Source: Amoebophrya sp. A120 (taxonomy: Eukaryota > Protista > Dinoflagellata). Taken from it: 64,000 nt of DNA. Each line of letters begins with the position of its first letter. The stretch's first letter is position 1. Below, piece by piece: positions 330 to 56,933 of this stretch. The translations under genes and the position numbers were made by a program. The notes beneath the pieces were generated by a model. That model saw only the letters and a list, made by a program, of their open reading frames with translations. It had not been told where the DNA came from and made no database searches. The stretch lies in the NCBI GenBank assembly GCA_905178155.1, contig CAJINV010000003.1, positions 4,499,863 through 4,563,862 of the forward strand, given 5' to 3'.

Positions 330-3300
330 CTAGCAATTAGCAGCAGTAGGATTATTGGAACCTTCCGGGTGCAGGGAATCCGCAACGGAATCGGGGCCTA
401 CCACAAACTGCTTCGGCATGATCTTCGAGATCGCTTTTTGCAGTTTCTTTCGTCGATTATCCGCTGCTACCCACGTGCTGAAGTAGTGGACCTCCTCGGA
501 CTTTCGCGGTGCAGGCGGGCTCGTCCGACTGCTTCGCGGTTGCGTACCCTTTCTTGAAGGGGACGAGGAGGAGGTTGCTCCCTCGCTGGTTGATTCGCGA
601 CCGCGGGAGGATCCGACCCCGGCTGAAGAAGGCGGCGAAAATTCTTCGCTGTCCGGCCCGTCCGATTCTTCTTGCCCGTCCGCCGTGCTGACGTTGCTGC
701 TGCTCACTTCTCGCTTTGGTCCACCTAGGTGGCCAGACTCGCCCTCTTTCCTCTTTTGCTTGCGTTTTCGCGCTTGTCGCTGCGGCGAGGTCTTCGCACC
801 CAACGACCCGCTCCCCTCTGCACTGTCCTCTGCTAGCAACATCGCTCCGTCCTTAGTGTTAACGTCCGAACCAGCTTGCTTCGCGCATTTTTTCTCTGCC
901 GAAGACGCCGCATCTTTATTTCCCGAAGATGATGCCAGTACAGCGTTTTCCGCTCCTGCGGCGAAGTTGTTTTTCTTGTTGCCGTCACATGATGAGTCCT
1001 TCTGGTCCGCCAGCTGCTCGAGCTCGCTACCAGTCTCCTTCGAATCCGTTCTCGGCGAGGCCGCGCATGCGTCCTGCTTGCCCTTTCCTTCGCGCCGCTG
1101 CTTGTACAGCTCGTCCCGGTACAGCCGTTCGTGGGTGACGTAGTCTTCTTGCGCCGCCTCCGAAATCGGCATGTCGAGATGCAGGGCCATCTTCTTCCGC
1201 ACGTTCTCCGCGTACAATTCTGGATCCTCCTTCTCCTGCTCACTCGGGTGGTACACCTTGAGCACCTTGATCTGCATCCGGTTTGCGAACTGGCAGCAGG
1301 TGCGGAAAAACAGCATGTCCATGTTGTTGCCCCCGCAGGCCGCTCCCGTCCAGCACGGGTTGTAGTGGTAATACGGGAACCGGATATCAAATGCAAAAAT
1401 GTCTGGGTCTGGAAAAACTCAACTTGTGATGCTGCATTTGGATGTCTAAAAAATTTGTGTTGCATGAGCAGCAAAAGGAGTGTAATTTTTGCTACGCGGA
1501 GAGGGCATTTGTCATGCGGAATAGGCATCAAGAGTCTCAGTCTCTTATAGAAAATTGTGATGCTAGGGCATGCATCATAGACATCATGGCTCATGCAAAC
1601 CGTGCGTGACAAGTCTCGGAATCTTCCAGACCCAGACATTTTTACAGTTGATACCGGAAGCACACGGGCTGCACGGGCGCGCCGGGCGTGAAGGCGCCCT
1701 TCTTGAACTTCAGCATGGCGATGTTGTTGCCCGTGGTGCCCTCGGGGAAAATCATCAGCTGGCTCGCGTTATCAAATGTAAAAATGTCTGGGTCTGGAAG
1801 CGTTGGAACTTGTGATGCAAACTCTGGAACACACAAAAATTTGTGTTGCATGGGCGCCAAAAGCTGTCCATTTCTTGGCACGCAAGTAGGCAGTTTCTCA
1901 TGCGTGACAGGCATCATGTGGCGTGCTCAAAACCTGTGATGCTTTTGCCTGCATCAGACGCCATTAGCGTGATCCGAAATATGCATGACAAATCTCGCAA
2001 TCTTCCAGACCCAGACATTTTTACATTTGATACGCGTTCGGGTCGTTGGTGCGACGCTTGATCTCGAGCAGCGTGTTCTTCTTCGCCTCGGGGTCCCCGC
2101 TATGCATTGCAAATATGTCTGGGTCTGGAAACTTGTCATGCAAGGAAGGGAAGAGTGAGCACTCTGTAATGCGCTGCACAGCATGGCAAGTTTTTCCGTG
2201 GTTCTGAGTTTCGTACTCCGCATGAAAAACTGCATTTTTGCACGACAGGCGAGAGGAGCTCTTCGCGGCCACGCAATACAGATTTCAGAGTCATACCGGA
2301 CCAGCATGGCAAATATCGCAATTTCCCAAACTCAGACATATTTACATTTGATACTTGCTGACAATCACCGCCCGTGCGGCGTTGACCACCTGCGGAAACC
2401 CCGGGAACGCCAGGTTGTTATCCTGAGTAAAAACGTACCCACACCAGAGTTGTAGTGCAGATTTGCGAGGACAGACGGACTTGTAATGCGCATCCCCATG
2501 AGAGCCATTTCCAGTCGTGTTTTGGAATTTGTGATGCTAAAACAACCGCACCGACATTGCCATTGTCCATTATCGCTGGGGAGGCAAGCCTCCGCAGGCG
2601 CTGGAGCGGCATAGGGTCAGAACCGCGAAAACATCGCGAGTATTTGGAATTTGTGATGCTGTGAACAGGGTGAGCAGATGAATCTGTGATGCGGCTGCAC
2701 TTGCTAACCTGCACTACACTGCATAGTGCAACTTGTCATGCGTGACTCACAAAACTCCTAGGTTTGTGTTGCAAAATCCTCATCCTGACTCTGGTGTGGG
2801 TACGTTTTTACTCAGGATAGTTGTTCACCGAACTCACGAAACTGCAGCCGCCGGACTTGAAGAACAGCATCACCACCTCCCAAATGCAGGGGTGGTTGGA
2901 CACCAAAATCTTGGCCGACTTGTCAAACCGCCCGTCCTGGTCGATCCGGAAATAGCACATCCAAAACATCATCGAACGCGCGCAAAGCGTGCCCAGCTGA
3001 AACCAAATTCGAAACCTGGGTTGATTGAAGTACTTGTAAAATAGACGAGAAGTAGTACTCACTCGGTAATTCTTGACGTCATGATTTCAGTCCAGATTCA
3101 AAAGAAGCAGGCGGCTACAGTAGAATTCCTAATGGATTTGCTCGTCCTTGAAAAAGAAAAAGAGAAACTGCTAAAGCCAACGCAGGCCGACAAAAAATAT
3201 CCAACCAATCTTATAGATACCAGAGGGTCTCATGTGGTTGCCAGACGGCCACGCAAAGGCAGAAGATGCCAAGGAAGCAACTGATTATGGTAAACAGGAA

Positions 3301-3979
3301 TCGCACCACTGCAATCCCGGACAGGCCGAAGAAAACCATCTTCGCGATTTCGTAGGACGTCAGCGGTGTGTCGTAGTAAAAAGCCATGTCTTTCCCAACC
3401 CTCTTCAATTTGGTTTGGTCTTCCCCGAGTTCCTCATCGGCATTGGTCCGGATACTGGAGACAAACCGCAAGCCCATCAATGCCCGCCAGTGCTCGAGAA
3501 AATAGAGAAAGAACTGGAAGAGTACTACCAGGATCAAATACCGCCAAAGAAAGGTCCCGACGAATCCTGCCTCGGGCTTTACTGGCGGAAACAGGCTCTG
3601 CATCAGATCCGCGGCACGTGCCTGTGGATGTCATAAAGAAAGTAGTTGAGTACTTTGTTAATTACGTCCAAACAGATTGCTTTAATGGACGCGATTGTAG
3701 ATCTAGATTTCTCTATTGGATACAAAATGAAAACCACGTTCCCAGAACTTCTGCCAATGAAACCAACAAAACAAAAATTGGTACCTCCATGCCTTCCAGG
3801 ACGAGGCGGCGAAAGGCTTCGGCACTAGAAACTGGCATATGGACAAACTCTGCCTGCGAAATGACTCCGTTACCATCGGTGTCGATCTCTTGGAACAAGG
3901 TCAACAGCACTTCTTCCATACGAGACTCCACGAAACTTGCGGCATCCGCCGCTGCATTGTGAATCCAATCTGTCGCCAT
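330..3979 (-). CDS. Lysophospholipid acyltransferase (LPCAT/LPEAT-like, PlsC family) with N-terminal EF-hand; 7 exons, ~691 aa
   Basis: Exons 3979-3785, 3621-3221, 3015-2820, 2413-2354, 2095-2033, 1764-1654, 1379-330 join in frame (2076 nt). Motifs: EF-hand [37 protein letters not shown]. Two GT-AG introns and four TIR-element introns. Confidence 0.85.
1385..1653. mobile_element. Introner-like TIR element, family A (269 bp), 5-bp TSD CCGGA
   Basis: TATCAAATGCAAAAATGTCTGGGTCTGGAA ... TTCCAGACCCAGACATTTTTACAGTTGATA; CCGGA at 1380-1384 and 1654-1658; removal gives [15 protein letters not shown]. Confidence 0.95.
1770..2032. mobile_element. Introner-like TIR element, family A (263 bp), 5-bp TSD CGCGT
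   Basis: Perfect ~31-bp TIR TATCAAATGTAAAAATGTCTGGGTCTGGAAG; CGCGT at 1765-1769 and 2033-2037; removal gives [15 protein letters not shown]. Confidence 0.95.
2101..2353. mobile_element. Introner-like TIR element, diverged family A (253 bp)
   Basis: TATGCATTGCAAATATGTCTGGGTCTGGAA ... TTCCCAAACTCAGACATATTTACATTTGATA; flanks CCCGC/CTTGC (decayed TSD); frame restored on removal. Confidence 0.85.
2419..2819. mobile_element. Introner-like TIR element, family B (401 bp), 5-bp TSD GTTGT
   Basis: Perfect TIR TATCCTGAGTAAAAACGTACCCACACCAGAGT; GTTGT at 2414-2418 and 2820-2824; removal gives [15 protein letters not shown]. Confidence 0.95.
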
Positions 3980-4865
3980 GGTGATGAAGCGCCTTGGTCG
4001 TCACGTGAAGGGTGTTTACATGATTTGGGATCGAAATAAAACTGTCAGGTGAATGTACCGTCTCCACAATTTGTTTTTGTTTTCCCCGGTCTTCATAACA
4101 ATCTAGGGCTGGAGTTCCGGCGGCTCTCGTTTTTCTTTTTAAGGCGAGCCATGAACTTTATTACCCTAGTCAAAGGGAGACTACTCGTGCTAGGCTCCGG
4201 CTCCGAGTGAAGTTTCTAGCCTTGAATTCTTAGCTTCTTTTTCTTTTTTTGATGGAGCAGGTGAAAAAGTAGCTCTTTTCTCAAACAAAAAAAAGCACCT
4301 CCTTAAAAAAAGCCGACCTGGTGAGGAATGATAGCGATAAATCACAGTTTACCACGTGGACCGACAATGGATGCATCTGATGCTGACACGAGATCCAATG
4401 ATCGCTGAGATCTCTTCAATTTTCTTGCGGATCCTTTGACAGCAATCTTTCTATCATAGTGCTGTTTTTAAAAATTTTTCAATGCGAACATTTGATTTTC
4501 TGAAAAATCACAGATTAATGGTGACAATTTGCTCATGTAGCATCTCAGAGCGAAATGGAATACGAATTCGAATACCAAAAGTGAAAAATACACATGAATG
4601 TCTGTCAGCTGTACGCCAGAGGTACAGGGATACACAAAGTGCGTGTCAGAATCCAACTTGATATACATTTTCCTCAACGGTCGCGCAAAATTACAACAAA
4701 GCCACGACTGGCAATGATAAGCTCTCAAAAACACTACTCAACACAACAACTGTACTAGCGATGACTATGTATTAACTTTGGAATAAACTGTGAAAACTCA
4801 AAACCGAAAAGCAAAAGATACTTTCAACATGGGACGAAATAAACTATTTTACAACTCAAATACTT

Positions 4866-7800
4866 TTATGTGAGTGTCTGATCAGCAGTGGTGTTCCGCG
4901 CCCCTGAGAGGACACCGGCCATACTGGAGATTGTACGCGGTTGCTCTGTGACCGTGCGAATGACGTGGCTTTTCACCTTCGTGAGCCGGCGATTCGTCGC
5001 GAACTTCTTGTCCCCGGGCTCGGAGCGTTCCTTAACCTTCCCCACGCACGTTCCGTCGATCACCACTGCACCGCTCCCACGCTGATTGGCCGCGGTCGGC
5101 TCGGCGTCCGGTTGGAATTTCGTCGACCGGAACTGCGCTGCTGATTCCGTCGTGTACATCCCCTCGATCGCATGATCCTGCATGCCCCGCGCGGGCGCCT
5201 CCTCGAACAATTTCCTCGTGAGAGACACGCTCCCGTTCGCCAGGGTCCGCGTCCCGCGGCGCGTGTTGGTCTTTCCCGTCGCTGCGATCAAGCGCTCCTC
5301 CTCCCCCGTCAGCCCGGTCGGGGAGGACCGGTTGAGTTTTGATGTAATTCTCCCGTCGTGCTCAGTAGATCTAGAAATAGCTTGCTGCACTTGCGCGAAG
5401 TTGTGGCCCGCGGACTGCGTTCGTCTCAAGTTCAGCCGTTCCATGTCGTAGTTCTGCTGTTTGTCGTACACCGACCGGTATAATCTTTTCGTTTCTGCGC
5501 TGGTGGGCGACCGGCCGAGCACGTCGTGGGAATCCCGTTCGCCGCAGACGATCCCGCCGAAAAGACGGACTTCGTACGGGTCCCAAGGCAGGTGGTACAT
5601 CGGGGACTTGGGTAACCGCACCCGGCGCTCCTCCATTTCGCGGCTCGTCATGAACCGCCGGCTCTTCACGTCGTCGCCGGGCGCGTTTTTGAGGTGCGGC
5701 TTCCGGTGCGGGGGAATCGTGGTGAAGTACTTGTCGTCCACGAAGTTCTCCTCCGTCTTGTCGTAGAAGGGCGCGTACTTTCCGTCATACAGGCCGGCGT
5801 AGGCTCGCGGTTCGGTCCAGACCTCGCCCTGAGTCGTCTCCTCGCCCAGTCGAGAGACGAAATAGGGATACTTGTCCCGGTCCGTGGTCTTCTCGCTACT
5901 TTCGCCGACGACCTTGTCGTCGTACTTCCAGCGCTGCCGCATGTTTGCGTCGCGCGTGCCGGGCTGCGATCGGGTGCGCAGCTGCTTCGCTTCCTGGGTA
6001 GTCATCACCTGCGCCCGCGCCTGGTAGGGTTTCAAATTCAGCGAGCTACCCCAGGGGCGCTCCCAGGCGACAAGTCGTGTCGAAGGAGGCTGCAAGACGT
6101 TCTTCATTTTCTTGTCGTGCTGTTGATGACCCTGTTGTTCTAATTCATCTACTTCCGCAACACTTGTCCGCGAACGGTTCGCCCGCTGTTGTCTGCGCAG
6201 CTCTTCATCTTCTTGCGCGTTTATTTGTTTATCTGCCTCCCTGGTCTCCTGCTGGTCGCGGTGAATAGGCGTAGAGACGCCGGCCGTAGGACTGGGAGGG
6301 TGCTGCTCAGCCCGGAGCGTTGCGGCGTTTTGCGAGTTGTAGAACCGATTTCGGGGTTTCTCGGATTTCACAAACGTCGTCGAAATCTTGTCCATGCCGT
6401 TCGACAAGTCTTTTTCAAGCGCGTGGCGCAGACGCTCTCGCTTCGGCTGATGAGACAGGGGTAGCGGGGCTGATTCATTAGTAGTGGTATTTCGTTGCAG
6501 CTCGTCGCTCGTGTCCAGGGCAGAGCAAGAGGCGCTGCTTGGCAGCTGCTGGCGCTCCGGCTTCATGAACAAGCTGGAGTATGCCGCTCCCTGAGCCTTC
6601 AAGAATTCCTCGTCTCCCGGGCGAAGCATATTCGGATCTACCCCCCGCCGACCAGAGGGCGCAACGTCCGTGATTTTTTTCGTCAGGTGCTGCGTATCGT
6701 GCTCGTACGTGGAGAGAGACGCGTGCTGTTCCTCTTCCGCGCCACCGTGGTCTTGTTCCAGTTCCGAAGGATCGGTTTTTCGTCCCGGAGAACTTGTAGC
6801 ACTAGCGCCTCGGCTAGACATCTTTCTGCTCTTCTTGTGCTTTTCTTGCTTCTCGGCATGAAGATTCTTGTTGTGCTCGGCCGCTTCCGTGTTTACAATC
6901 GTACGCTCGGGACTCACCTGGTTCCGTCGCATCGCGTGCGTGGAGTGGAAGCTTCGTTTGTTGTTCGCTCGACGGGCGGGGTCGTGGCCCCAGATCAAGT
7001 CTTCGTCGGTTGCGACGCGTGGGCGGTGCGCGGTTTGACTTTCTACTTGAGATGTTATTGGGAACTGTGCCTGCTCCTCAGCATCTTGCTTAGCGTCCAA
7101 CGCAAAAGCTATCTGTCTCTTCTGGCCCCCTTGGCCGCGCGCATGAATATCGTCAACCCCGGACGACGAGTCCGACCCGCGTGCACTCATCTCCGCGTGA
7201 CGATCAGAGTGCGCCAGATGAACAACGGGCTGCTGACGCCCGCCCCGCAGCCGAGGTTCGTTCCGGCCGCGTGCTCCTGCATCTGCCTCTACTTCCTCCT
7301 GGCCACCTTCTCCGAAATTTTCCCGCCGAAAATCCTCCTGATCGGCGTCCAGGGGCGTCACCTCTTCCCAACCATCGGAGAGGGCCTCCTCGGCGCCAAT
7401 GCACTGCACCCGCTCCCGCACGCCCTTGTTTTTTATCTTCTGCAGCTTGCGCGTCAACTGGTCCTTCTCCTTGGCGGGCGCGACGTTTTTGGACTTCTCG
7501 TCCACCGTGTAGCCAGCCCGGAGCTTCTCGTGGTGCTCGCTGTTCTCTTGGAGCAGAATCAGATTGCCCTCCTCGTTCAGCGTGACATCCACGGTGCTTT
7601 CCAGCAGGTTGTTTGGGGGCTTCCACATGTACACTTTGTCGCCCTCCTCGGCGTCGTCGTTCCACGCCCCAAAAGAGCACCGCTTCAGGGCGTCCTCTCG
7701 TTCGTCAATGTCCTGCTGCACGAGCGTACTCCGCAATCGTGCGATTTTCGCACTGGACAAAGTCCGCGCAGGCTGTTTCTGCGTGCTCGAAGTTGTCGTA

Positions 7801-13482: not shown

Positions 13483-14049
13483 CTCGATTCAGCGCAACGC
13501 GCCCGCCGGCGCACCTTCTGCGCAAACAAAAAATGAAAGTGAAACTAGTGATGAAAAGAAAAGGAAAACAACAATGCTGCTGACATTATTTGTACATTAT
13601 GGTATGTTCTTGAAGGTTATAATGTTGAAAGCGGATACAGTATTTCATAAGTTTTTTGCTTGCTTCAGACGAATTCCTAACGTAGCCTGCGCTTTAAAAC
13701 GGAACAAAGTTTCATAGCTTTCTTTTCATGATCTGCACAATAATGCGCAGCAGACCACTACTTCTACTTGTCGTGTGCAACATGCGCTTTGTACGACGGA
13801 AGTACGCCAACCACGACAGGAACGATGCAATTGACGGTGTACGACATCAGACACACGACTGTTTGGAACGATTGCAAGTTCTTCATTAAGATTTACCTTT
13901 GCGTTTGAACGACGGAAAAATAATTCTTTCACGAGTACTACCTTTTCAGGTTCAACAAGAACGGTGCCGCTTCTGAACAGTATGATATACACCCAGAGTA
14001 ATTTTACTGGCCTTGGACGACAAGAGCGTTTCCGGAAGTTGAGTAGATC

Positions 14050-14610
14050 AAAAAGAAGAAAACAAAAAAAAAAAAAAAAAAAAAACTAAAAAAAAAAAAA
14101 AAAACAAAATAAAAAAAAAAAAAAAAAAACAAGATAAAAAAAAAACATATAAAAAAAAAAAATAAATAAAAAAAAAAAAAAGAAAAAAATAAAAATAAAA
14201 AAGAGAAAAAAACTAATGCACAAAAGAAAAAATAAAACTAAAAAAAAAAAAAAAAAACAAAGAAAAACAAAAAAAACAACACAAAAAAAAAAAAACAAAA
14301 AAAAAAAAAATAAAAAAATAACAAAAAAAAAAAAAATAGAAATAAAAACAACAAAAAAAAAGAAAAAAATAGAAAAAAAAAAAACAAAAAAAACAAAAAA
14401 AACAAAAAAGAAGTAAAAAAAAAAAAAAAAAAAAAAATAATAAAAAAAAAAATAATAAAAAAAAAAAAAAAAAAATAAAAAAAAAAAAGAAAATAAAAAA
14501 AAGCAAAAAATAATAAAAAATACAAAAAATAAAAAAAAAAGAAAAAAATAAATAACAAAAAAAGAAAACAAAAAAAAAAAAAGAAAAGAAATAAAACAAA
14601 CAAAAAAGAA

Positions 14611-14650
<40 letters not shown>

Positions 14651-14777
14651 AAACAAGAAAAAAAGGAAAAAAAAAAACCAACAAAAAAAAAACACAATAA
14701 AAAAAAAAAAAACAAAAATGAAAAAAAAAGAAACAAAAAACAAGAAGAAAAAATAAAAAAAAAAAAAAACAGAAAAA
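14050..14777. other. ~730-bp almost pure-A low-complexity tract, probable sequencing/assembly artefact
   Basis: Irregular A runs with scattered other bases and no periodicity; it abruptly replaces the exon and TSD expected next to the element at 14778. Confidence 0.7.
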
Positions 14778-15029
14778 TATGACTTGCTCAAACGTTACAA
14801 TCTCAAACGTTACAATAGAGTCTGGAATTTGTGTTGCATGATGGGCATGACAGACTCGCACAGCGTTCCACCTTTTGCAATACAAATTTTCCCAGATTGT
14901 AGTGGGGTTTGGAGCTCCGGAACTTCTCATGCGCAACCCCATGAGAGTTGGCTAGATCATGCTCATCATGCAAGACAAATCTCAGATTCCATTGTAACGT
15001 TTGAGATTGTAACACCTGAGCAGGTTATA
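14778..15029. mobile_element. Introner-like TIR element, family C (252 bp, ~70-bp imperfect TIRs)
   Basis: Left TATGACTTGCTCAAACGTTACAATCTCAAACGTTACAATAGAGTCTGGAATTTGTGTTGCATGATGGGCATGA matches the reverse complement of the right end (…ATTGTAACGTTTGAGATTGTAACACCTGAGCAGGTTATA). TSD not checkable because the left flank is the poly-A tract. Confidence 0.85.
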
Positions 15030-18387: not shown

Positions 18388-18619
18388 CCTTTCTTTCGCG
18401 GAAGATCAGCAACTTTTTATTGTACAGAGACGGCGCCATTCCGTGGTTTTTCTGCTGACCTAAGATCTCCTGTAAAGCAGCAAAAGTACAAAATTCAGAG
18501 GCGTGAAAAGTAGTTTGAGGAATGCAAAATCAAAACATTTGAAAAGACGAACTACGTGGTTTGTTCAAAATGTTCCTAATATCATACAGAAATAATATTA
18601 GACGCTAAAAAATGACCCT

Positions 18620-19880
18620 CCCAACCTCCACCGTCGGACAGCCACCTCCTCCACCCCTTCCCTCATCCTCCGACCGACCGGCCTCCTCCTCCGGTCCAGA
18701 CCTCCTCCCCGGCTCGCACCTCCTCCTCCGGCCCGGACCTCCTCCTCCGGTCCGGCCCTCCTCCTCCGGTCCGGCCTTCCTCCTCCGGTCCGGACCTCCT
18801 CCTCCGGCCCGGACCTCCTCCGCCGTTCCGGACCTCCTCCTCCGGCCCGGACCTCCTCCGCCGTTCCGGACCTCCTCCTCCGGCCCGGACCTCCTCCTCC
18901 GGTCCGGACCTCTTCCTCCGGCCCGGACCTCCTCCTCCGGTCCGGACCTCCTCCTCCGGCTCGCGCCTCCTCCTCCGGCCCGGACCTCCTCCTCCGGCCC
19001 GGACCTCCTCCGCCGGCGCGGACCTCATCCTCCGGCCCGGACCTCCTCCGCCGGCCCGAGCCTCCTCCTCCGGCGGGGACCTCCTCCTCCGGAGGCCGGA
19101 CGTCCTCCTCCGGCCCGGACCTCCTCCTCCGGCCCGGACCTTCTCTTCCGGCTCGCGCATCCCTCCTCCGGCCCGGACCTCCTCCTCCGGCTCGGACCTC
19201 CTCTTCCGGGCCGGACCTCCTCCTCCGGGGGCCGGGCCTTCTCCTCCGAACGCTGGAAGGACCTCCTCCTCGGGAGACCGGACCTCTTCGTCCGGTGCCC
19301 CGACCTCTTCCTCCGTGGCCCCGACGTCCTCCTCCGGGCGCCCGACCTCCTCCTCTGGAGGCCGGAGGGACCACCTCCTCCTGGCGCTGGACCTCCTCCT
19401 CCGGAGGCCGGACCTCCTCCTCTGGAGGCCGGACCTCCTCCTCCGGGCGCCGGACCTCCTCCTCCGGAGACCGGCCCTTCTCCTCTGGAGGCCGCACCCC
19501 CTCCGCCGCAGGCCGGACCTTCTCCTCCGGGCGCCGGACCTCCTCCTCCGGAGGGCGGGCCTCTTCCTCCGGTCGTGCCTGCCTCGACCTCCTCCTCCGG
19601 GCGCCGGACCTCCTTTGCCGGCCGACCGACCTACACGCCCGGCCCGCGGACCTCCGCCGCCGGCCCAAGGTAGGTCCTTTCTCGCTCCGCCGGCCCCAAC
19701 TTCCGGCCTGCTGCACCCGGCCTCGGCGCCCAGAAATTCTTCTCCGGCCTGGAGAACTCTTCTTTCGGGCCCCCGGAATCCACCTTGAGCCAGCGGGCCT
19801 TCGCACCCGGCCCCTGACCTCCTTCTCTGGCCAGCGGCCGGACCACCTCCTCCGGTCCGCGGACATCCTCCGGTCCTCCT
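18620..19880. repeat. GC-rich minisatellite, 19-bp unit CCGGACCTCCTCCTCCGGY grading into a 21-bp unit CCGGACCTCCTCCTCCGGAGG
   Basis: Dozens of units; translation cycles through frames (19-bp part) or repeats PPEEEVR (21-bp part, ~19380-19560). Confidence 0.9.
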
Positions 19881-22349: not shown

Positions 22350-25300
22350 TCAGCTCTCGCCGTTCTCCGCCCGCTGCGCGGCCTCCAGGGAAACGACCGG
22401 CGGCGGGTTCGCGCGCCGCTCTTTCAGCAGCTTGTAGAGCTCGGGGCTCGTCACGGGCTTACTGAAGTAAACCACGCACACCCGATGCCCCTTGGCCCAC
22501 GGTTCGGTCGCGTGCGCGCGTTTCCCCGAGAAGCGGACCCAGGTCAGGTAGGTTTCCAGAAACTTCCCGCGAATCCCCTCGCCCTGCTGCCAGTCGCGCC
22601 CGTCGTATCTGCTGAGCGGGATCGTGATCGGATACCAAAACGGGTCGCCGCCCTCTTCCCCCGAATCATGCACGAAGAGCCTCCCGCACGGGTACCTGTT
22701 TGGTGATTAGAGTCTATCTGGCGCGCTCTAGTGAAAAACAAGCCGCCGCAGGCTTGCCCGGGCGACGAATGGCACCGGCCTGCCGCTGGTGGAGGCCGGC
22801 AAAATTGCAAAGCAAAAACAAAAAGAAAAACAGAGAATCTGCACCCCTCGGCCCCGTTGCTGTAGGTCCCGCCGGAGAACGTGGCCGAAGGCGCGCTGTT
22901 CTTGCCGTCAATGTGCACGGGCGTCTGCACATCGAGCCCGATGCCGATACCTGCGGATTGATGATTTTTTCAATTTAGAAAGACTAGCGCACCAGCTACC
23001 GCGCGCGCACGCTGCTAAGAAGATAGTCGCCAAGCTTGGAGAAACAAAGCGAGCCCATACCTGTCCAGAAGAACCCGCCGACACCCTTCGCCGCGCGGTC
23101 TTTGGCCACTGCCTCGGCGACGTCAGCACAGGCATCCCACACCTTCTTCTTCCATTTATCGTCGAACTTGGCCGCAATCGTATCCGGCTTCTGCCGGAAA
23201 TCGGTCAAGCCCATGCCGAGGAAGTTCACTTTTCCGGTGGCGTAGATGTTGCTCCTTTCTGCGGTCGGAAATCCGCTCTCGACGCGCGTCATGCAAAGGT
23301 CGACGACTTTCTGCATCTTCGTCTTGATATGTTCCGGCTCCTGCGCTGCCTGTTTGAAGAAACCCTTCGGGAGAGCGTCCTTTCTAGAAGTTTGCCGCAA
23401 AGCCTTTGCCATCAGTTCCGCCTGCTCCGCGCTCCTCTGCTCCCCCTTCACTCGCTTTGCAGTTTTTGATGCCGGGTTGAACACGAACTCGGGCTCATCA
23501 CCTTTGTCCCCTCGCAATTCCTCTCCGGCGAAAAATTTCGGCAGCTGGGATGCTCTGCTCTTGGACGTCTTCCGCGTCGCTGCTTCGTAGACCTTTCTCA
23601 TCGCAAAGACGCAGCGCTTAGTCCTGAGGTTCTGCTCCACACTGGCTGGCAACTGGGACGGGAGAAATTTCGACAACGGCTGCAGTGCTAGTAGCGGAAT
23701 AATCACCTGGTTAAGTTTTTTTTTCCTCTGAAGAAGAAAACGCGACATGATGCGCATACTGGACTCACATCTGCTGCACTAGAAGAAGCAGGAAGTGTAG
23801 AATCTGGCCAGCAAGAACAGCCTGCCGAGCAAGTCCAGCTGTACCTTTTGCCGTCTGCATTCCGCCTCGAAGCGGTGCGTCTTGTTTGTGGCGCTGTCTA
23901 CGACTCCGCGCCCCTCCGTTCCGGTTCTCCTGTGCTCGACGGCCCCCACAAGCTGCACCAAGCAGTCTCCCCCAATTGTTCGCTTGAGGTTCTCCCCGGC
24001 CTGGGTGGCGTTAATCAACTAAAGTATCCTCAAAAAAAAATCCATCTACCCAGCAGTCGAAGCTGCAGGCGTGACACCATGCAAAAGTAGCAAAATAGGC
24101 AAACGGCTGCCGCTACGTCTCCAGGCGCACACTGATACAACAGCCTGCAGCTTTGTATGTCGGGACAGATGGATCTTTCACTTGCTACGCAGACCGCCCT
24201 CTGGCTGCAAAGTCTCTGTGAGACAGCACTGCAGCCGTCTTTTGATTTCCCGAGTATTTTCTTCCTTTTCTTCCTTCGTATCCGGAACAGCAGCGCGCGG
24301 CTGGTTCTTCTGCCTGGCCTCATTCGCGCTCTGCTCCTCCGTGGTGAAGAAGGCGCCGTGCCAGTTGCGCTGTGCCTGCAGAACTCGTCGTCTCGTTGCC
24401 GCTGCTCCTGCGCCCGAATAATATTTCCTCCAAACACCGTGATACAGCCTGTTCTGCCTGGAGTCCAGGACCAACTTCTTCTGCTTCTCCGCGAGATCGC
24501 TCCCGAGCTTCAGGATCTTCTTGCAGCTTTCCTCGTCCCCCTCCAACAGCGTCCGGACCTGCTCCTGCACCTGCGGCTTCTTGATTTCCGGCAGCGAGAT
24601 GGGCCACGAAGTTCTGACGCAGTACTCCTCCCCCTCGAACCATTCGCCGACGTCGCGCCCCGCGTAATCATATGCATTGCAAACTTGTCCGGTTCTTTAT
24701 GAATGTTCAGGGCTGATGTGCGAGAGCGCACACATACTTGGATGCCCCTTGATATTTCAGCGGCTCAGTCACCAGAAAGATGCAGTGAGAAGCAGATAGG
24801 GTCTCTGCCATGCCTCCTGCGTGGCGCCTTTTCCGCGTTAGCAAGTTTGGCGCTGAGCTTTAAATTGGTCCGACATATAGCAGCCCGGACAAGTTTGCAC
24901 AAGATAAAGACCCGCCGGGATCCGCCGCGTTTGACTTGGCATCGTCTAGATTCCAAACATGCGGATAGTGGCGTCTTATCAAAGACACCGAGGCGACTTC
25001 CGCATCGCGCGAACCGTCGTCGCTGATCGCAGCCCACAGTCGCCGAAACCCGTTCATACAGGTCTCCTTCCTCGCATTGTGTTGCTTCCGCCAGGCGGCC
25101 ATTGCTTTTTCCGCATCGGTAGGTCCAGCTGGTCGCTTACTCTCCGTAGTTGCGGCGATCTTGCTAGAAGTGGAAGCGTTCACCGCAGAGCTCGTTGCAG
25201 GGGCGGGAGCGGTCAGGGACTTCGGCGGCTGCTCGTGAGCGATTTTCAAAAAATCTTCGTACTTGGCCTGCAGCTTCTCCAGTTTTTTCCCCCAGCTTAA

Positions 25301-26776: not shown

Positions 26777-29384
26777 TCACTGCTTCGCGTCGTCGTGATC
26801 AACCCACTGCAGGCACCTCTCGTACGCAATCTGCATCGCAAGCAGCAGAACCGCCTGCAGAAGACAGTACTTCTGCATGCCATTAGCGCCCGCCACTGTT
26901 TTCCGCGCGACGGGCGGCCCGCAAAAGCCACCCGATAGCTGGCACACCGAGAGCGCAAGCGCGACCCAGTTTGCGTCGCTTGTTTTCATCCGCTGAAAGA
27001 GGATCCCAAGCGTTTCTCGCTCCGCACCAAAAACGGAGAGGTAGAGCAGCGTGTTGCCGCACAGGAGAAGGATGACCCAGCCTCCACTGGAGGTTTGTGT
27101 GACTGTGCCTCCGTTCGGACCGTCTTCGATGGACCCGAGGAACCGACTACACCATGTCCCTACGCCGAGTAGAACGAGTATTCCGAGCAGGCCCACCGAC
27201 AGAAAAGCGCGGATCACAGGCGTGCGCCGTCCCGCCGGCCCAAACACTCCGCTCTGCTTCAAGTAGGGCGTCAGAAGAAACGCACTGACCCCGCCGCCAA
27301 TCGGGATGAAGCTGACGAACCCGATGTGGTCGTTTGGCCAGCCGAATCGCGTTTGCAGTGTCAGTGCCAGCGAGTCCTCCACTCCCGTCAACATCAACGT
27401 GCGCAGGAAGGCAATGCTGAGGGCACCGGCAAAGATGTTGAACCGCCTGCTTTTGCCGTCAACATCCTCCGTCACTTCTTCCGCTTTCCGAGACGAGGCT
27501 GCTTTTTTCTGCTCCAGCAGCGGTTTTTCGAGTGCCGGCTGTGCTTTTACAGCTCCTGGCCCAGGGTCATTGTCGAAAGTAGCCGCTACTTGGTTTATTT
27601 TCCCGGCCGTGCTGGAGGTACGATGTACAACAGACGCTGCAACAGCTCTGGTTGTAGATTTTTCCTCCTCTGTTACCCGTCCGGCCTGGAGGATTTCCGC
27701 CAGCGACTGGCGTGTCATATAACGAAGGTACAGCAGCGCCAGACCACTCCACGCAACAACGCCCATGATTCCCGTGCCCTCGTGTGCAAATGCGTCTACT
27801 TCCGTGGAGGAGCCGGCTCCGCGATCTTCTTCCCGTGTGCCCTGATCAAAATCGAAGTTGAAGTGCACGAGCGCCATTTCTGAGGCGGAGAAAACGGCGG
27901 CGCTCATGGAGCCGATGATAGCGAGGAGACCGAGCAGGGGTCCAAAATATGCCACGTGTTCGCCCGGGACGACGTATTTGACAAGCGGGGCAAGATATTC
28001 AGTCCAACCATGAAAAGCATCCCCGCCTCCACAGGATACAAACACGACTGACCGTCTCCTGATGCACCTCCAATGGGGTTTCGGCCTTTCGTTGCTTGGT
28101 GTTTATTCTCACAGCAGGCTTTGTTTCCGAAAACATTCTTTTTGTGCAAAAATCGCACACAAGTTATTCGAGTATGACTCAAATCAGAGGTAGAGGCGCT
28201 TTTCATGATGGTAAAGAGATCTGTGTGTTGATGCCGCGCGACCACCCGCCGACAAATCTTGCAAGGAGCAACACAGATAGTATCCCGCCGGAGTTGAGCC
28301 TTCTATAACTCTTCATGCAATGAATGTTGCTAAGTGATAGTGCTGTCGAACGCAGACTGACTGATGTGCTGCTCATGATGTTGGGTTTGAATATGCGCTT
28401 CCACCTTTTGGCTTGGTATAGCAAGACAAGACTCTGACTTGATTTCCAATTCTCGGCGGATACAAGATGTTTCAAAACCCGCGCCTTCCATTCTATCGGG
28501 TCCAGTTTCCGTCGTCGTTGCTCCCGGTATAATTCTAGCCGGTATCCTCGACAGACCGATACTGAGCAGCACCCAGGAAAAGATTCGGATTCCCGTTGAG
28601 TAAACGAAAATGGTCCGGATCGAAACCGTCTGTGCTCTTTCGGAGCGAAGAAACAGGTACGTGCAGAAAATTCCCGGGATGGCACCGAGGTTCTCCGCAC
28701 TGACCAAAAAGCCACTGATATCCTGAGTAAAAACGTCCCCACACCATAGTTGAGATGGGAAGTCTGCAACACAAAATCCCAAGTTTTGGGAGTTCTGCAT
28801 GACAAATTTCCATCTGCAGTGTAGGGCTGGCTAGCAAGTAAAGCCGCATGAGAAAGCCATTTCCTCATCCTGTTTACAGCATTACAGATACCAAAACACG
28901 ACTGGAAATGCCTCTCATGGAGTTGCGCATTACAAATGTTCCTGTCATTGCGCATTTGCATCACAACTATGGGGTGGGGACGTTTTTACACAGGATAACT
29001 GAAAGCAGCGCCTCGTTGCAACCCGAGCGCCACGTTGTAGGCATCCAGGATGACCACGGAGGTTGACCAGGCACCAAAAAAACCGGTTAAGGATATCAGC
29101 CCGTAGAGAATCTTCCACTCGTTACTATTTTTGTCCCCGGTTGTACTGCTGATGCTTCTACCCGAAGATGTCGCCAGTTTGGTTACACAGCTTTCTTGTG
29201 CGCCACACTTCCTGACGCGGCGAGCGAACAGCACGTATCCGATCAAAAAAGCTGCTGTAAAGGTCAGCGAAAAGAGCAGAGATATCGCGTCACTCCGAAG
29301 TTGCTCGCGGAGGCCTGCGGGGGCCAGATTCTCTTCAAGCGCCTCGCCAGGGCGGTCGTCGAGAGGTCGAACTTCTGCTCGCAT
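26777..29384 (-). CDS. Major facilitator superfamily-like transporter, multi-exon (middle junctions unresolved)
   Basis: Many TM segments; SVVILDAYNVALGL..GAAFS-GFLVS, LLLARFVGG, FGPLLG, GGFCGPPVAR. Junctions in ~28050-28480 could not be fixed. Confidence 0.65.
28719..28997. mobile_element. Introner-like TIR element, family B (279 bp), 5-bp TSD ACTGA
   Basis: TATCCTGAGTAAAAACGTCCCCACACCATAGTTG ... CAACTATGGGGTGGGGACGTTTTTACACAGGATA; ACTGA at 28714-28718 and 28998-29002; removal gives GAAFS-GFLVSAENLG. Confidence 0.95.
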
Positions 29385-30167: not shown

Positions 30168-31585
30168 TCAAGTAGCCCGCCCGGTTCGGTCCGCCTTTTC
30201 AAAGAGAATTCGGCCCGCCGCAGAGAGCAATTTGTCTCCAAGTTGGTTGTCCAGCGGCTCTACTGGGTAGGAAACGTCGCTCCGATCGATTGTACTGTCG
30301 CTCGCCATGCTGCTGGCGCTCCGCTGCGGAAAGATCTGATTGTCCGATACAGAAGCTTTCACAAAACCGTTGGTAATGGCCTCCGCCTCCGTGACCAAGT
30401 CCGGGAGCTCTGCGCAGCAAGAGAGTGCTTGTGTGAAGTCTTGGCCCACTGCCCACTCCGACGGCAGTGCCAGCGTCGGAATACCCGCAGCCAGCGGGCT
30501 CTGCATCGAAATCCAAGTGTCTTCCAGGGCCAGCAGACTCTTCGTCTTGATAACTTCCTCGAGCGCAGCCGGGTTCTCTGGTGGGGTGGGTGTCTGTTCG
30601 GGCAGGCCCGATCCGTCGTGCTGCTGCCCGGTGGAGCTGTCCTCTACTGCAGGCGACGCGAACTGCTTATGGAATGAAAATATGGGTTCCTTGTTGTGAC
30701 TGTTTCGAGACAGTTTGCAAGAAAACCAGAATGCAGCACAGAAACTACGCGTTTGCGTAGGTGCCTCTTGGGCAGGGACGCGGAAAAATGTGCCGTGCAA
30801 GTAACTTCGCACTCTGCAAAAACATGCACCAGGTGCGATTCATTCTATCGAGATATCATGATCCGTGCTTGATCTACTTCTCACTAAACAAAGCCACAGC
30901 GTTGCACCCCTTTTTTTCTTTGTTGATACAGCTGTCCCACAACGTATTGGTAGCAGTCCGGCTCGGGCTTCCCCTTGTCCGGGTACCGGACGCCTCGGTC
31001 GTCGGCAGTAATGTAGACGTCAAACAGGTCCCGCAGATTGAGCACGTCGAGAAATGCGTCGATCACAACCCGTTCCGTCGGGGCGCAGAAGCCAACCTTC
31101 ACGTTGTTGCGCCGCGCGGCGCGGAGAAAGGCTAAAACCCCGGGGCGCAGAGAAAATTGCACTTCCGGCGCAGTCGTCGCCCCATTCAGTTTTATTTGAT
31201 AAATTCTTTCCGCGAAAATCTCGGACTTGCGGTGGTGGATGCGGGCGCAGAGTTCGTCGCTCAAGTTGGTTTCGTCCTCTACCGCGTAGTTGTTGGAGAA
31301 AAATTCTCGCAGCCGCTTTGCGCCGCCCGTGGACGTCAGGGACGCAATGTACTGCTCGCGCGGCCACAGGATTTCCTCCTCCTCGAGACTGCCGTGGTCT
31401 TCCGGGGCGGCATCCAGTTTCGCCGGAATAATCAACTCGCCGCTGTCGCGGAACTCGCACAGCGCCTGGTTAAAACACCGCCACTGAAGACGGCTGCAGT
31501 GCGCAACTACACCGATCGACCCCACGATGACCGCGTCCAGGCCGCGGGGAGTATCCTCCGCGTGTTGCGGCGGTGCGCTATCCAT
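30168..31585 (-). CDS. HAD-superfamily (CbbY-like) hydrolase homologue, 2 exons (~383 aa)
   Basis: VIVGSIGVV…LQWRCFNQAL, STGGAKRL, LRPGV, KGKPEPDCY, ALEDT..SMQSPLAAGI; exons 31585-30929 and 30662-30168. Confidence 0.75.
30668..30928. mobile_element. Degenerate introner-like element (261 bp), near-TSD CTGCT/CAGCT
   Basis: TATGGAATGAAAATATGGGTTC ... GCACCCCTTTTTTTCTTTGTTGATA (weak TIR); 4/5 flank match; size like family A; element plus 5 nt removal gives VGQL-FASPAV in frame. Confidence 0.6.
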
Positions 31586-38429: not shown

Positions 38430-39905
38430 TTTGATTTTTGCCCCAGTTGGCCACTAACGTGCAACATTTTCTCCGACTTGGCCAGTACTTTGCGAGATTT
38501 TACCACAGCTGGCGACTAACTTGTAAGATTTTGCCCGGGCTGGGAAGTAACTAGTAGAATTCTCCCTCGATTAGCTGCTAACTTGGAAAATTTTGATGAT
38601 GTTGGCCGCTAAGGTGCGAGATTTTACCCCAGTCGGCCGCTAACTTCGAAGATTTTGCCTCAAGTGGCCCTTAATTTGCAAAATTGCATGTGGATTGGCC
38701 GGCAACTGAGAAGATTTTGTCATAGGTGGTCGGTAAGTGCGGCAATTTTGCCTAAATGGGCTGCCCACTTTTAATATTTTGACGTGGTAGGTAGCCAATT
38801 TGTAAGATTTTACCAAGATAGCAGGCGAGGAGCGAGATCGTGGATTTATTCCACTTTGAACGTGCGTAAGAGTGGAAGACACATGCTGCACGCGTGCGCG
38901 TGCCTGTATGTGTATGCATTGGGTAGCAGGACCTAGATCGGATCACGACCACGGTGTCACGATTCGTATTTGTTTTTACCAATCAGCAAAGCCAGAAAGA
39001 GAGTGAGAACAGATACCACATACAAAAGGAGAATAAATTGGGTGGCTAACTTACAAGACTTGCACAATTTTGCCCCATTTAGATGCTAATTTGCACAATT
39101 TTCCCGAAATGGGCTGCCAACTTGCAAGATTTTATCCAAATGGGCTCCAAACTTGGAAAATTTTCTCCAAATGCGCTACGAACTTGCAACATTTTATCCC
39201 AGTGGGCTAGTATTTTGTGCAGATGCGTGAGCCTACCGAATGCGGCCGGTTTTACTACCCTTCAGGGCGCAGGAAGCGGGAGCGATGTCGCACCTTGCAG
39301 CGCACGCCGTGCACGCTTTTGAAATAGGCGGGTGCCCACGAGGCAACCCCCGGTTGCTATTGCTAGCGACCAGGGCCGCAGGGAGCTTCACTGCACTTTT
39401 TTGGTGCGGTGGCTTTTCGTGGAGCTTATCGTCCACGCCCACTGCAGATACACAGATCGCGGCTGCACTGCGGCAGCCGTGTATCGATCCCTGTGAGGAG
39501 GATCGACCTAGATCTGTGGTCCGGCGCTCAGTCTGCGTTCCTGAGCCCCGGCGCGACCTTGTGGTGCCACTGCGGGCACAGGTCGCCCTGCTAGGCCGCT
39601 GCGAGGCCTCGTTCTTGTCCCCGTGCGGGGGGAGTGGCGCTCGTGTGCCACTCTGTGGGGGTCCTCTACGCCCTGTGCGAGGCGTGACCCCCGGCGCGTT
39701 GCTCGCGGAGGACCTGCGGATCCTGTTGGCGTCTCGGCGCAGCTTTCGAGGCAGGTCGGTCGCGTTCGAGGCAGGTTGGCAGCTTTCGAGGCAGGAAACT
39801 TGCAAAATTTTCTCCAAATGGACTACCAACTTGCAACATTTTATCCCAATGGGCTACTATTTTGCAAGATTTTCCGCAAATGGGCTGCCAACTTGTCAGA
39901 TTTTT
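38430..39905. repeat. Degenerate 31-bp satellite in three blocks (~38430-38820, ~39040-39215, ~39775-39905)
   Basis: Consensus about AACTTGCAAGATTTTNCCCAAATGGGCTNCY; AACT anchors at 38518, 38549, 38580, 38642 give period 31. Confidence 0.85.
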
Positions 39906-39920
39906 TGGCATCTGCTGCCC

Positions 39921-40056
39921 ACGCCCGGCCTCCGCTGCCCGGGCCCGGCCTCCGCTGCCCGCGCCCGGCCTCCGCTGCCCGCGCCCGGCCTCCGCTGCCC
40001 GAGCCCGGCCTCCGCTGCCCGCTCCCGGCCTCCGCTACCCGCGCCCGGCCTCCGCT
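39921..40056. repeat. 20-bp tandem repeat GCGCCCGGCCTCCGCTGCCC x~7
   Basis: Near-perfect units directly visible. Confidence 0.95.
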
Positions 40057-40057
40057 A

Positions 40058-40190
40058 AGTGCCAAGTATATTGCGCAGCGCATTGCGGGCGGGCTACAAC
40101 GACTGGACTCGCAGAGTGCTCAGTATATTGCGCAGTGCATTGCGGGCGGGCTGCAACGACTGGGCTCGCAGAGTGTTCAGTATACTGCGC
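40058..40190. repeat. 57-bp tandem repeat x~2.3
   Basis: AGTGCYMAGTATATTGCGCAGYGCATTGCGGGCGGGCTRCAACGACTGGRCTCGCAG repeated. Confidence 0.9.
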
Positions 40191-48768: not shown

Positions 48769-49502
48769 ATGCTGCGCGTTGCGGGGGTTGCGCTAGGTAT
48801 GACTGCCGCCAAGTATGCGGCAAAGAAGGCGGCGGAACAGAAGAAGAAGGAGGGCCGGCTGAAAGAAATGCTGGAGCAGCAGGGGGGAAGTGCCATGGTG
48901 TACTTGGTCATTGGAATCGCGGACCCCGATTTCGTAGACTGGCTCGCGGGGGAGAAAACCGGCGCCTCCCAGCTTGTGGCCGCGTTCTTTACGGAAAGCG
49001 AAGCCAAGGCCTTTTTGATTCGGCAGCAGGAGCGCATGGCGCTCGGGCTGGTAGACCAGGGTGACGGACTGAGGCTGGAGATCGACAAGGTCACGATGCG
49101 GTTGGTCCCGCTTTCCAAGGCGGATGCGGCGAACAAAAAGACCTTCTACGGCCTGCGCGGAACGCAGTACCAGCTGCAGGAGCTGACCGGAAAGTATTCC
49201 CCGGCGCTGGTCGTGGAGCATCTCCGCCGTCTGGACCCCCTTGGCGTCGCGGTGCCGCCCTTCGAACGCCCGGCGACGTCTATGAACTGCAAAAGCATCG
49301 TACTCGTGTAAATGCATTACAAATTTCCTCAGCATGAGAAATAAAATTTGTAGTGCGGATCTACCTTAGGAAAAAAATGCATGACTGCGATACGAGTACG
49401 ATACTTTTGCACAGGATAACGTCGTACAACGAGCAGGCTGCTCGCGCTTCACGCCAGGAATTCAAACGTTGGCTGGCGACACAAATGGCTGCGCCAAAAT
49501 GA
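48769..49502 (+). CDS. Hypothetical protein, 2 exons (~196 aa)
   Basis: ORF 48769.. continues after removal of the TIR element plus TSD: ERPATS-YNEQAARASRQEFKRWLATQMAAPK*. Confidence 0.7.
49281..49418. mobile_element. Introner-like TIR element, family D (138 bp), 5-bp TSD ACGTC
   Basis: TATGAACTGCAAAAGCATCGTACTCGT ... ACGAGTACGATACTTTTGCACAGGATA; ACGTC at 49276-49280 and 49419-49423. Confidence 0.9.
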
Positions 49503-50314: not shown

Positions 50315-50523
50315 CTGACTGCTCCCGTGGTAGTCTCACCTCCTGCGTTATTTCTTTTTTACCCCACACATGTACTTGATCAAATTTGCACGACCCCAAA
50401 TAAATTGTTCTTTCTGTACGCATTTAAGTAATATTAGACAACTCTCAGTCTCACCAGATTAGCTTTTTTTCCTTCTCTTCTTCCAAACCGACTACAGCCT
50501 ACTTACAACGCGAAAAAATAAAA

Positions 50524-56087: not shown

Positions 56088-56933
56088 ATGCCACCAAAAG
56101 TGCCGACGAAGGATCCGCGAGGAGGCATCACGACAACGGTCGAGGTGGAATGCTGGAAGCAGCGCCTGAAATCCGAAAATTCCATCACCGCGGGCTCGTT
56201 GGCGCGCGACATGGAGCGGGCAGGAGATTTGAACAGGAAAAATGTATGGATTGTAAAAATGTCTGGGTCTGGAAGATTTCTAGATTTGTCATGCATATTT
56301 TCCATGACCCATGATGTCTCTGTCTGTCATGCATGCCTTAGCATCACAGATTTTTAGAGCGCTTTGTGATGCCTCTACAGCATGAGAAATGACCTCTCCG
56401 CGCCGCACAAACTGGAGTCCTCTTGCTGGTCATGCAATACAAATGTTTTCAGTATCCAGAGACAGCATCACAAGTTTAGAATGTTCCAGACCCAGACACT
56501 TTTACATTTGATAAAATGATCTCTTGTACTACTACCGAGCAAAGGACGAGCCGGATCGTCCCTTTGTGCAGTTCAGCTTGGACAAGGTACAGATAGTACA
56601 TCTACATTGCTTATTTGTTGATGTACATAAGATGAACTGCAGGTCGTGACAGAATCAAAAATCTCGTAGCCTTTATTAATTTCAACGCCTTTTGATTTTT
56701 TTTATTTTTTTTCAACATGATTGATTCAGCTTCGATCGGACGCGGGGTTTGACGTGAAGGCGAAGACGGACACCTTGTACCCGGAATACACAAGACACAA
56801 GGAGGGCTTCAAATCGAACCGCCCGGTGCGGACGTCGCAAGCATACGGCTACTACGCCCCGCTGGATCAGCCGAAGTACGGGTTTAACCGTACCAACGGC
56901 CTGGATTCCTTCATGGACAACTCGCACTTGTAA
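56088..56933 (+). CDS. Small hypothetical protein, possibly a ciliary microtubule-inner protein (~142 aa, 3 exons)
   Basis: Exons 56088-56244, 56519-56586, 56730-56933 in frame; the P.RTSQAYGY motif resembles FAM183-like proteins (tentative). Confidence 0.65.
56245..56513. mobile_element. Introner-like TIR element, family A (269 bp), 5-bp TSD AAATG
   Basis: TATGGATTGTAAAAATGTCTGGGTCTGGAA ... TTCCAGACCCAGACACTTTTACATTTGATA; AAATG at 56240-56244 and 56514-56518; removal gives LNRKN-DLLYYYRAK. Confidence 0.95.

What the first reader, a model, noticed from the sequence alone, without database searches (positions are those of the whole stretch)
1380..56518. Intron-generating DNA transposon system: ten TAT...ATA elements with 5-bp TSDs that must be spliced out
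Seen: elements at 1385, 1770, 2101, 2419, 14778, 24671, 28719, 30668, 49281 and 56245 all begin TAT and end ATA, and all sit in coding sequence. Six have perfect 5-bp TSDs (CCGGA, CGCGT, GTTGT, ACTGA, ACGTC, AAATG). In all 9 checkable cases, deleting the element plus one 5-bp copy restores the frame, e.g. around conserved acyltransferase motifs. For most perfect-TSD copies no sliding of the junction within the TSD gives GT-AG. Established: IR/DR-bounded non-canonical introner introns are reported in Amoebophrya. Inference: these are MITE-like copies of a 5-bp-TSD transposon (hAT5-like or unclassified; no transposase in this window), and the TIR stem may itself define the splice sites.
Basis: partly seen in the sequence, partly recalled or inferred. 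Interest (0 to 1): 0.9.

Follow-up and report, generated by a model that had tools for sequence, protein, structure and literature searches.

The report
Known Amoebophrya transposon-derived introns
These are copies of the already described mobile introns of the marine parasite Amoebophrya A120: short inserts that duplicate five bases where they land and are cut out of the gene's product without the usual GT-AG signals, likely at a fixed position set by the element's own ends.

Summary
The window is Amoebophrya sp. A120 (first gene 100% identical to CAD7940460.1). The elements match the A120 introner elements of Farhat et al. 2021 (TAT + 7 nt + AAA inverted repeats, 5-bp direct repeats). Gozashti et al. 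2025 list one A120 family with '5-bp TSD, TA/TA termini'.

Added here: a probable-RNA contig and the annotated protein lack E1-E4 plus 5 nt each. In a close relative's contigs, 216 of 285 paired elements have an exact 5-bp duplication with no target preference. Two tandem paralogs give 8 filled/empty sites with a single target copy. Both orientations occur. GT-AG is possible in 3 of 62 copies, and in-frame GT-AG options at E3 and E4 are not used.

Four imperfect duplications point to one cut register: the intron starts 1 nt before TAT and ends 4 nt after ATA. One site argues against this. No transposase was found. E5-E10 have no RNA evidence here. Verdict: already known; the cut register is a modest, testable addition.

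The parts
1385..1653 (-). E1, 269-bp TAT...ATA element, TSD CCGGA x2, in acyltransferase gene
   Evidence: (contig skips 1379-1652 = 274 nt)
1770..2032 (-). E2, 263 bp, perfect TIR, TSD CGCGT x2
2101..2353 (-). E3, 253 bp, imperfect TSD (3/5); protein keeps the upstream copy; in-frame GT..AG option unused
2419..2819 (-). E4, 401 bp, second TIR family, TSD GTTGT x2; same-length GT..AG option unused
14778..15029 (-). E5, 252 bp, near the 3' part of a TBP-domain gene; one flank is an A-rich stretch, TSD not assessable
24671..24906 (-). E6, 236 bp, degenerate TSD (2/5); +5 removal restores frame; no RNA evidence
28719..28997 (-). E7, 279 bp, E4 family in opposite orientation, TSD ACTGA x2; no RNA evidence
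30668..30928 (-). E8, 261 bp, decayed TIR (9/26), TSD 4/5; end inferred; no RNA evidence
49281..49418 (+). E9, 138 bp, TSD ACGTC x2; no RNA evidence
56245..56513 (+). E10, 269 bp, E1/E2 family, TSD AAATG x2; no RNA evidence
361..4250 (-). Host gene of E1-E4 (part of CAD7940460.1: EF-hand, acyltransferase, CDP-alcohol phosphatidyltransferase); also two ordinary GT-AG introns near 3014-3218 and 3621-3783

Best explanation
The ten inserts are Amoebophrya A120 introner elements: short elements with terminal inverted repeats that duplicate five target bases on insertion and are removed from the transcript together with five bases, likely by a spliceosome that reads the element's ends instead of GT-AG. 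Shown: TIRs, a fixed 5-bp duplication, empty sites with one target copy, insertion in both orientations, removal of element + 5 nt at E1-E4. Inferred: they are non-autonomous DNA transposons (MITE-like) moved in trans by an unidentified DDE or integrase-like enzyme making a 5-nt staggered cut. Because one duplication's worth of bases leaves with the intron, the mRNA is restored exactly and insertions into coding sequence are tolerated. Inferred with moderate support (about 0.55): the cut is fixed at 1 nt before TAT and 4 nt after ATA, so the donor reads N-U-A-U-(C/G), like GUAUG with the first base free, and the acceptor dinucleotide is unconstrained.
For: Identity with A120 protein and match to the published motif (Fig. 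S19 legend). Contig 9 of run X3 (RNA by the tool's guess), 0 mismatches, skips 274 nt at E1 and 932 nt = 263+253+401+15 over E2-E4, and also skips two GT-AG introns that DNA contigs of X1 cover. P0001 matches +5 at 4 of 4 junctions, P0002 at 10 of 13. Relative's contigs: exact 5-bp duplication 216 of 285, 4-bp 1, 6-bp 0; +5 frame in 77 of 87 confidently coding sites (p 1e-26); 8 polymorphic paralog sites with a single target copy; four elements inside an RNA polymerase Rpb1 gene. Register: E3 and L009:6841-7119 need at least 4 upstream bases kept; L065:5463-5671 and 6193-6465 need at most 4. Under that register 5' dinucleotides are AT 28, GT 20, CT 16, TT 13 of 77 and 3' ones span 15 types.
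Against: No transposase in 22 window ORFs or 150 of 166 long ORFs of the loci; Farhat et al. found none in A120 and argued against general transposase-mediated mobilisation. One site (L009:3625-3948) has the downstream copy equal to the paralog's empty site and the upstream copy changed at 3 of 5 positions, which the fixed register does not predict. Two advance predictions (L012, L025) could not be tested. The register rests on gene-model proteins and conservation, not on raw reads. E2, E3 and E4 were seen in RNA only as a sum. The raw-read RNA run X13 had no exon coverage. No lariat data, so spliceosomal removal is not shown.
Confidence: 0.85

Rival explanations
1. The hairpin itself is excised by a non-spliceosomal, structure-guided pathway, as suggested for euglenid nonconventional introns; end sequence matters only through pairing.
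For: Strong terminal stems in 8 of 10 window elements; U1 snRNA not found in A120; no dinucleotide preference; euglenid precedent.
Against: E6 and E8 have unpaired outer ends yet keep the +5 frame (frame only, no RNA); 33 of 77 elements pair TATC with TATG ends; U2, U4, U5, U6 and most spliceosomal proteins are reported present; the Euglena signature is absent.
Confidence: 0.25
2. The cut position slides within the 5-bp repeat from copy to copy or transcript to transcript; there is no fixed register.
For: Farhat Fig. 3 legend calls splice sites variable relative to the hairpin. One contrary paralog site. TSD mismatches are rarer at positions 3-4 (5 of 29, p 0.013) and 13 of 22 are synonymous, as if both copies were partly constrained.
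Against: Four of five informative sites fit one register; apparent variability is expected from ambiguous placement in perfect repeats.
Confidence: 0.3
3. The elements spread by an RNA route (reverse splicing or retrotransposition) rather than by a DNA transposase.
For: No transposase found here or by Farhat et al.; A120 has autonomous LTR and non-LTR retroelements; a 5-bp duplication is also typical of LTR integrases (recalled).
Against: Reverse splicing gives no target duplication and only sense orientation; here the duplication is fixed at 5 bp and both orientations occur, 17 vs 16. TIRs of about 30 bp plus repeated internal motifs (25 of 34 window hits lie inside the elements) are DNA-transposon anatomy.
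Confidence: 0.1
4. The elements are unspliced insertions in dead genes, or use ordinary GT-AG sites.
For: X3 is RNA only by the tool's guess; X13 raw RNA reads hit only TIR ends.
Against: Spliced contig with intact frame; annotated protein; elements inside Rpb1; GT-AG possible in 3 of 62 and 0 of 6; available GT-AG options at E3 and E4 unused.
Confidence: 0.02

Closest known systems
Amoebophrya A120 introner elements (Farhat et al. 2021, PMC7789003)
   Same: Same organism; IR starts TAT + 7 nt + AAA; direct repeats of 3-5 nt, 5 bp in Fig. S19; about 240 nt; non-canonical ends; 29,850 copies reported. These are members.
   Different: The paper leaves the intron border unresolved and doubts transposase-mediated spread. 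Here the duplication is a strict 5 bp with empty sites, and a fixed cut register is proposed.
A120 introner families of Gozashti et al. 2025 (PMC12130899), incl. family 38
   Same: Classed as TIR DNA elements; family 38 annotated 'Ginger; 5-bp TSD, TA/TA Termini' in supplementary file 8.
   Different: Most families listed in the three parts I read are 'Unknown' superfamily with automated TSD calls of 2-6; I could not assign the window's elements to family numbers.
Polarella glacialis class 12 introner-like elements (bioRxiv 2020.10.14.339549)
   Same: 5-nt TSD; one described geometry takes the donor's first base from the last TSD base and the acceptor from NNAG, the register inferred here.
   Different: There the target must be NAGGH or NNAGG and orientation is single; here the target is free and both orientations occur.
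Euglenid nonconventional introns (PMC12501133, PMC11282704)
   Same: TIR-bounded, TSD-like repeats, no GT-AG, splice sites at set spacing from a paired motif.
   Different: Different signature (N3CDG...CH'GN5-6|R), not present here; reported circular excision products; unrelated lineage.
Fritillaria borealis MITE-derived introns (as reviewed in PMC11282704)
   Same: Transposon-derived non-canonical introns with TIR and TSD, removed by an altered spliceosome.
   Different: Preferred AG-AC/AG-AT ends; no such preference here.

Membership tests
Amoebophrya A120 introner elements | Occurs in the A120 genome | tested here: met
   P0001 = CAD7940460.1, 100% over 105 aa; maps across 360-3979
Amoebophrya A120 introner elements | IR motif TAT + 7 nt + at least 3 A at the ends | tested here: met
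   Both ends in 8 of 10, one end in E8, neither in E5 (definition)
Amoebophrya A120 introner elements | 3-5 nt direct repeat at the exon/intron boundary | tested here: met
   6 of 10 perfect 5 bp; 3 imperfect; 1 not assessable
Amoebophrya A120 introner elements | Spliced out, with non-GT-AG ends | tested here: met
   E1-E4 only; E5-E10 not tested with RNA
Amoebophrya A120 introner elements | Repeated through the genome | tested here: met
   X1 summed depth 1.7e4-5.6e5 over elements vs about 45-57 over exons (not a copy number); 145 loci in a relative's contigs
MITE / non-autonomous TIR DNA transposon | Fixed-length TSD and empty sites with one target copy | tested here: met
   216 of 285 exact 5 bp; 8 paralog sites, in the relative, not at the window's own sites
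MITE / non-autonomous TIR DNA transposon | Autonomous partner with the same TIRs and a transposase | tested here: inconclusive
   None in 22 window ORFs or 150 locus ORFs; whole genome not available
hAT5 | hAT transposase with dimerisation domain; hAT-type termini | not testable with these tools
   No transposase to classify; only the 5-bp TSD (recalled for hAT5) agrees; literature search gave 0 papers
Ginger | TG...CA termini (recalled) and integrase-like transposase | tested here: not met
   Termini are TAT...ATA; Gozashti text says family 38 lacks Ginger termini and TSDs
Transib | CAC...GTG termini with 5-bp TSD (recalled) | tested here: not met
   Termini TAT...ATA
Euglena nonconventional introns | 5'-N3CDG ... 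CH'GN5-6|R signature | tested here: not met
   Signature from abstract; element ends read N-TAT(C/G) and (G/C)ATA-N4 (judged by eye)
Spliceosomal (U2-type) intron | Lariat formation and snRNP dependence | not testable with these tools
   No lariat or raw-read junction data obtained

The most novel reading that the evidence does not exclude
A120 splices tens of thousands of transposon introns by a ruler rule: the donor is any base followed by the element's UAU(C/G), the acceptor lies exactly four bases past the terminal AUA whatever those bases are, and nearby in-frame GT-AG sites are passed over. The transposon end motif has then become the splice code, works in both orientations, and lets an unclassified 5-bp-TSD transposon insert anywhere in coding DNA without scar.
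Probability: 0.5. Interest if true: 0.72.

Novelty: already known. Interest (0 to 1): 0.4.

Why it matters
The system is one of the most extreme known cases of intron gain by transposons, but it has been in print since 2021. What remains open in the papers I read is where the cut falls and what mobilises the elements. Imperfect duplications give a direct way to read the cut position from existing RNA data. Empty sites and a strict 5-bp duplication argue for a DNA cut-and-paste enzyme that the original paper did not find. If the fixed register holds, it names a concrete substrate for studying splicing without U1 and without a fixed G at +1 or AG at the 3' end.

Tried and rejected
No whole genome was held, so no copy count or parent search in A120. 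No RNA holder was listed on record. X13 raw RNA reads covered only TIR ends (102 laid, no exon depth) and X9 only element pieces: no evidence either way. TIR scans: 0 in viral contigs, 0 in prokaryote genomes. No locus overlapped window genes outside the elements, so no empty site for E1-E10 themselves. E6 and E8 had no blastn match in the loci at 1e-10. Parent search: ten motif pairs over 450 bp with perfect 5-bp repeats, none with a transposase; the 2459-bp L078 element's ORF had no Pfam or Atlas hit. Register tests without an answer: L012 (no hit); L025 (top hit is the contig's own gene call, A25 relative too diverged); L049:5517 (lies in an ordinary intron); L064, L009:5566 and L009:7204 (unconserved or synonymous). 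Table S4's NT-AN classes were rejected as support: random placement within perfect repeats gives the same pattern. A codon model mis-called strand or frame for E4, E5, E7 and E9 on 57-nt flanks, so it was used only with thresholds. G at +1 in 5 of 10 window elements vs 20 of 77 is not significant (p 0.14). A TTGAT branch point 7 nt from the 3' cut fits only some families (by eye). Earlier findings of this scan: none.
Full report
Observation. All ten elements are present. A scan for TAT...ATA pairs gave ends for nine, with 18-26 of 26 terminal bases complementary; E8 at 30668 pairs at 9 of 26 with a best end at 30928. Six have perfect 5-bp flanking repeats; 200 shuffles gave a mean of 0.01 such pairs. 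Removal of element + 5 nt gives an open frame at the nine checkable sites. No equivalent slide yields GT-AG at any of the six perfect copies. There are several TIR families: E1, E2, E3, E10 share one, E4 and E7 another. A short internal motif set occurs 25 times in 2.6 kb of elements and 34 times in the whole window.

Organism and prior description. The last exon of the first gene is 100% identical over 105 aa to a protein labelled Amoebophrya sp. A120 (CAD7940460.1). Farhat et al. 2021 (PMC7789003; I read the abstract, passages, sections 10, 11, 16, 25, and supplement legends and Table S4 rows; figures not seen) describe A120 introner elements whose IR motifs start with TAT, seven looser bases and at least three As, with 3-5 nt direct repeats (5 bp in the Fig. 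S19 legend), 29,850 copies, no U1 snRNA found, no transposase found in A120, and an intron border that 'remains unknown'. Gozashti et al. 2025 (PMC12130899; passages, and parts 15-17 of 33 of supplementary file 8) class most A120 families in those parts as TIR DNA of unknown superfamily and annotate family 38 as '5-bp TSD, TA/TA Termini'. The finding is therefore a published system.

Splicing. Run X1 behaves as DNA of this strain: contigs of 17.7 and 11.7 kb with 0 mismatches cover the ordinary introns, and summed depth over the elements is about 300 to 10,000 times that over exons. Run X3 (RNA by the tool's guess) has a 4006-nt contig with 0 mismatches. It joins 1378 to 1653 (274 nt skipped = 269 + 5), holds 123 nt between 1764 and 2820 (932 removed = 263+253+401+15), and skips two GT-AG introns. 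E2-E4 were seen only as that sum. The annotated protein, from a transcript-based pipeline, matches +5 at 4 of 4 junctions. At E3 an in-frame GT..AG intron of 255 nt is available and is excluded by both the contig length and the protein. At E4 a same-length GT..AG option would put Asp where the protein has Val and the contig keeps those bases. The raw-read run X13 gave only TIR-end reads. E5-E10 have no RNA evidence in this work.

Transposition. A TIR scan of metagenome contigs returned 145 matches stored as 143 loci, all from one assembly prefix. One gene there is 98% identical to an A120 protein, so this is a close relative. Among 285 de-duplicated nearest TIR pairs, 216 have an exact 5-bp flanking duplication (4 bp: 1; 6 bp: 0), 37 match 4 of 5, 6 match 3 of 5 and 26 match 2 or fewer, many of the latter long mis-pairings. 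Target bases are near background. Of 217 elements with at least 3 of 5 matches and usable flanks, 87 had confident frames on both sides and 77 of these need +5 modulo 3; this cannot separate +5 from +2 or +8, but P0002 matches exact +5 at 10 of 13 junctions. By eye, the three misses are one nearby substitution and two elements only 7 nt apart. Orientation relative to transcription is balanced, 17 vs 16 among TATG/TATC-asymmetric copies, and GT-AG is possible in 3 of 62 perfect copies. Two tandem paralogs on one contig carry eight elements in the aligned stretch, none at a shared site; each partner site has one target copy, matching a flanking copy at 5 of 5 bases in five cases and 4 of 5 in three. 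Four elements, one of 972 bp, sit in an Rpb1 gene (Pfam; joins; that +5 gives the usual Rpb1 motifs is recalled). This is the anatomy of non-autonomous cut-and-paste elements. No transposase appeared in 22 window ORFs (ORFs around E6-E8 were not scanned) or in 150 of 166 locus ORFs of 200 aa or more.

Cut register. Perfect repeats hide the junction; imperfect ones show it. With k the number of upstream-copy bases kept: E3 needs k of 4 or 5 (Lys in P0001); L065:5463-5671 and L065:6193-6465 need k at most 4 (Ser and Arg in P0002); L009:6841-7119 keeps the paralog's Gly only at k of 4 or 5. Together k = 4: the intron is the last base of the first copy, the element, and four bases of the second copy. 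Under it the 5' ends of 77 copies are AT 28, GT 20, CT 16, TT 13, the 3' ends span 15 dinucleotides, and 44 of 77 are phase 0 (p 4e-5 against even). The same geometry is described for Polarella class 12 elements, there with a constrained NNAGG target (bioRxiv 2020.10.14.339549, passages). Against: at L009:3625-3948, a family lacking the AAA motif, the downstream copy equals the paralog and the upstream copy differs at three positions; the region is diverged and the changes create AAG|GT, but it does not fit. Mismatches are also scarce at positions 3-4 (5 of 29) and 13 of 22 are synonymous, which could mean a sliding cut. Two advance predictions could not be tested. I found no paper fixing the register, but the library is incomplete and Farhat's Figs 3 and S19-S25, which I could not see, may already show it.

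Mechanism, most likely. A trans-acting DDE or integrase-like enzyme inserts the element with a 5-nt staggered cut (inferred). The symmetric ends give a donor-like N-UAU(C/G) in either orientation, and a tolerant spliceosome cuts at fixed distances from the ends (inferred; lariats not shown). The hairpin may help bring the ends together: terminal stems are predicted in eight elements, while the outer ends are unpaired in E6 and E8. A structure-only route like the one discussed for euglenid introns (PMC11282704, passages; PMC12501133, abstract) remains a real rival. Another Amoebophrya strain has GT-AG introns and U1 (PMC12005148, passages), and a 2024 review repeats Farhat's account (PMC11453091, passages).

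Verdict. Observation confirmed, interpretation supported, system already known. Interest 0.4: empty sites, the strict 5-bp duplication and a testable cut register add to an open question, but the phenomenon is not new.

Noticed in passing
window 1-4250 (P0001): The host gene is annotated as one protein with an EF-hand, an acyltransferase and a CDP-alcohol phosphatidyltransferase domain; the 4006-nt contig is long enough to hold both enzymes.
   Followed up: partly
window 14040-14777: 737-nt stretch, 85% A, abutting E5 and removing its target copy; looks like an assembly or consensus error.
   Followed up: no
L065:7120-7618: Two elements 7 nt apart with overlapping target copies; by my reading a 2-nt exon must be kept between them to give the A120 protein, which implies sequential removal.
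   Followed up: partly
L078:476-2934: 2459-bp element with perfect 5-bp duplication carrying a 415-codon ORF with no Pfam or Atlas hit; probably cargo or a nested insertion.
   Followed up: partly
L049:4001-4972: 972-bp element in Rpb1 with an inner insert ending in an A-rich tail and flanked by a repeat of about 16 bp, like a non-LTR retro-insertion (by eye).
   Followed up: no
L049:5517-5756: An element nested inside an ordinary GT-AG intron.
   Followed up: no
loci L001-L143: Further TAT...ATA families without the AAA motif also have 5-bp duplications, so the shared constant is TAT...ATA.
   Followed up: partly
window 18600-19900, 38400-40100: Tandem repeats with 19/21-nt and 31/20-nt units.
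   Followed up: no
window 16666-60575: Other genes by Pfam: TBP, a ubiquitin-conjugating domain, a BNR-repeat protein, a papain-family protease with I29 propeptide, a TPT transporter, an RRM protein.
   Followed up: no
run X13 on window 1620-1659: About 70 RNA reads carry one TIR end joined to unrelated flanks: an element end retained in some transcript of that sample.
   Followed up: no
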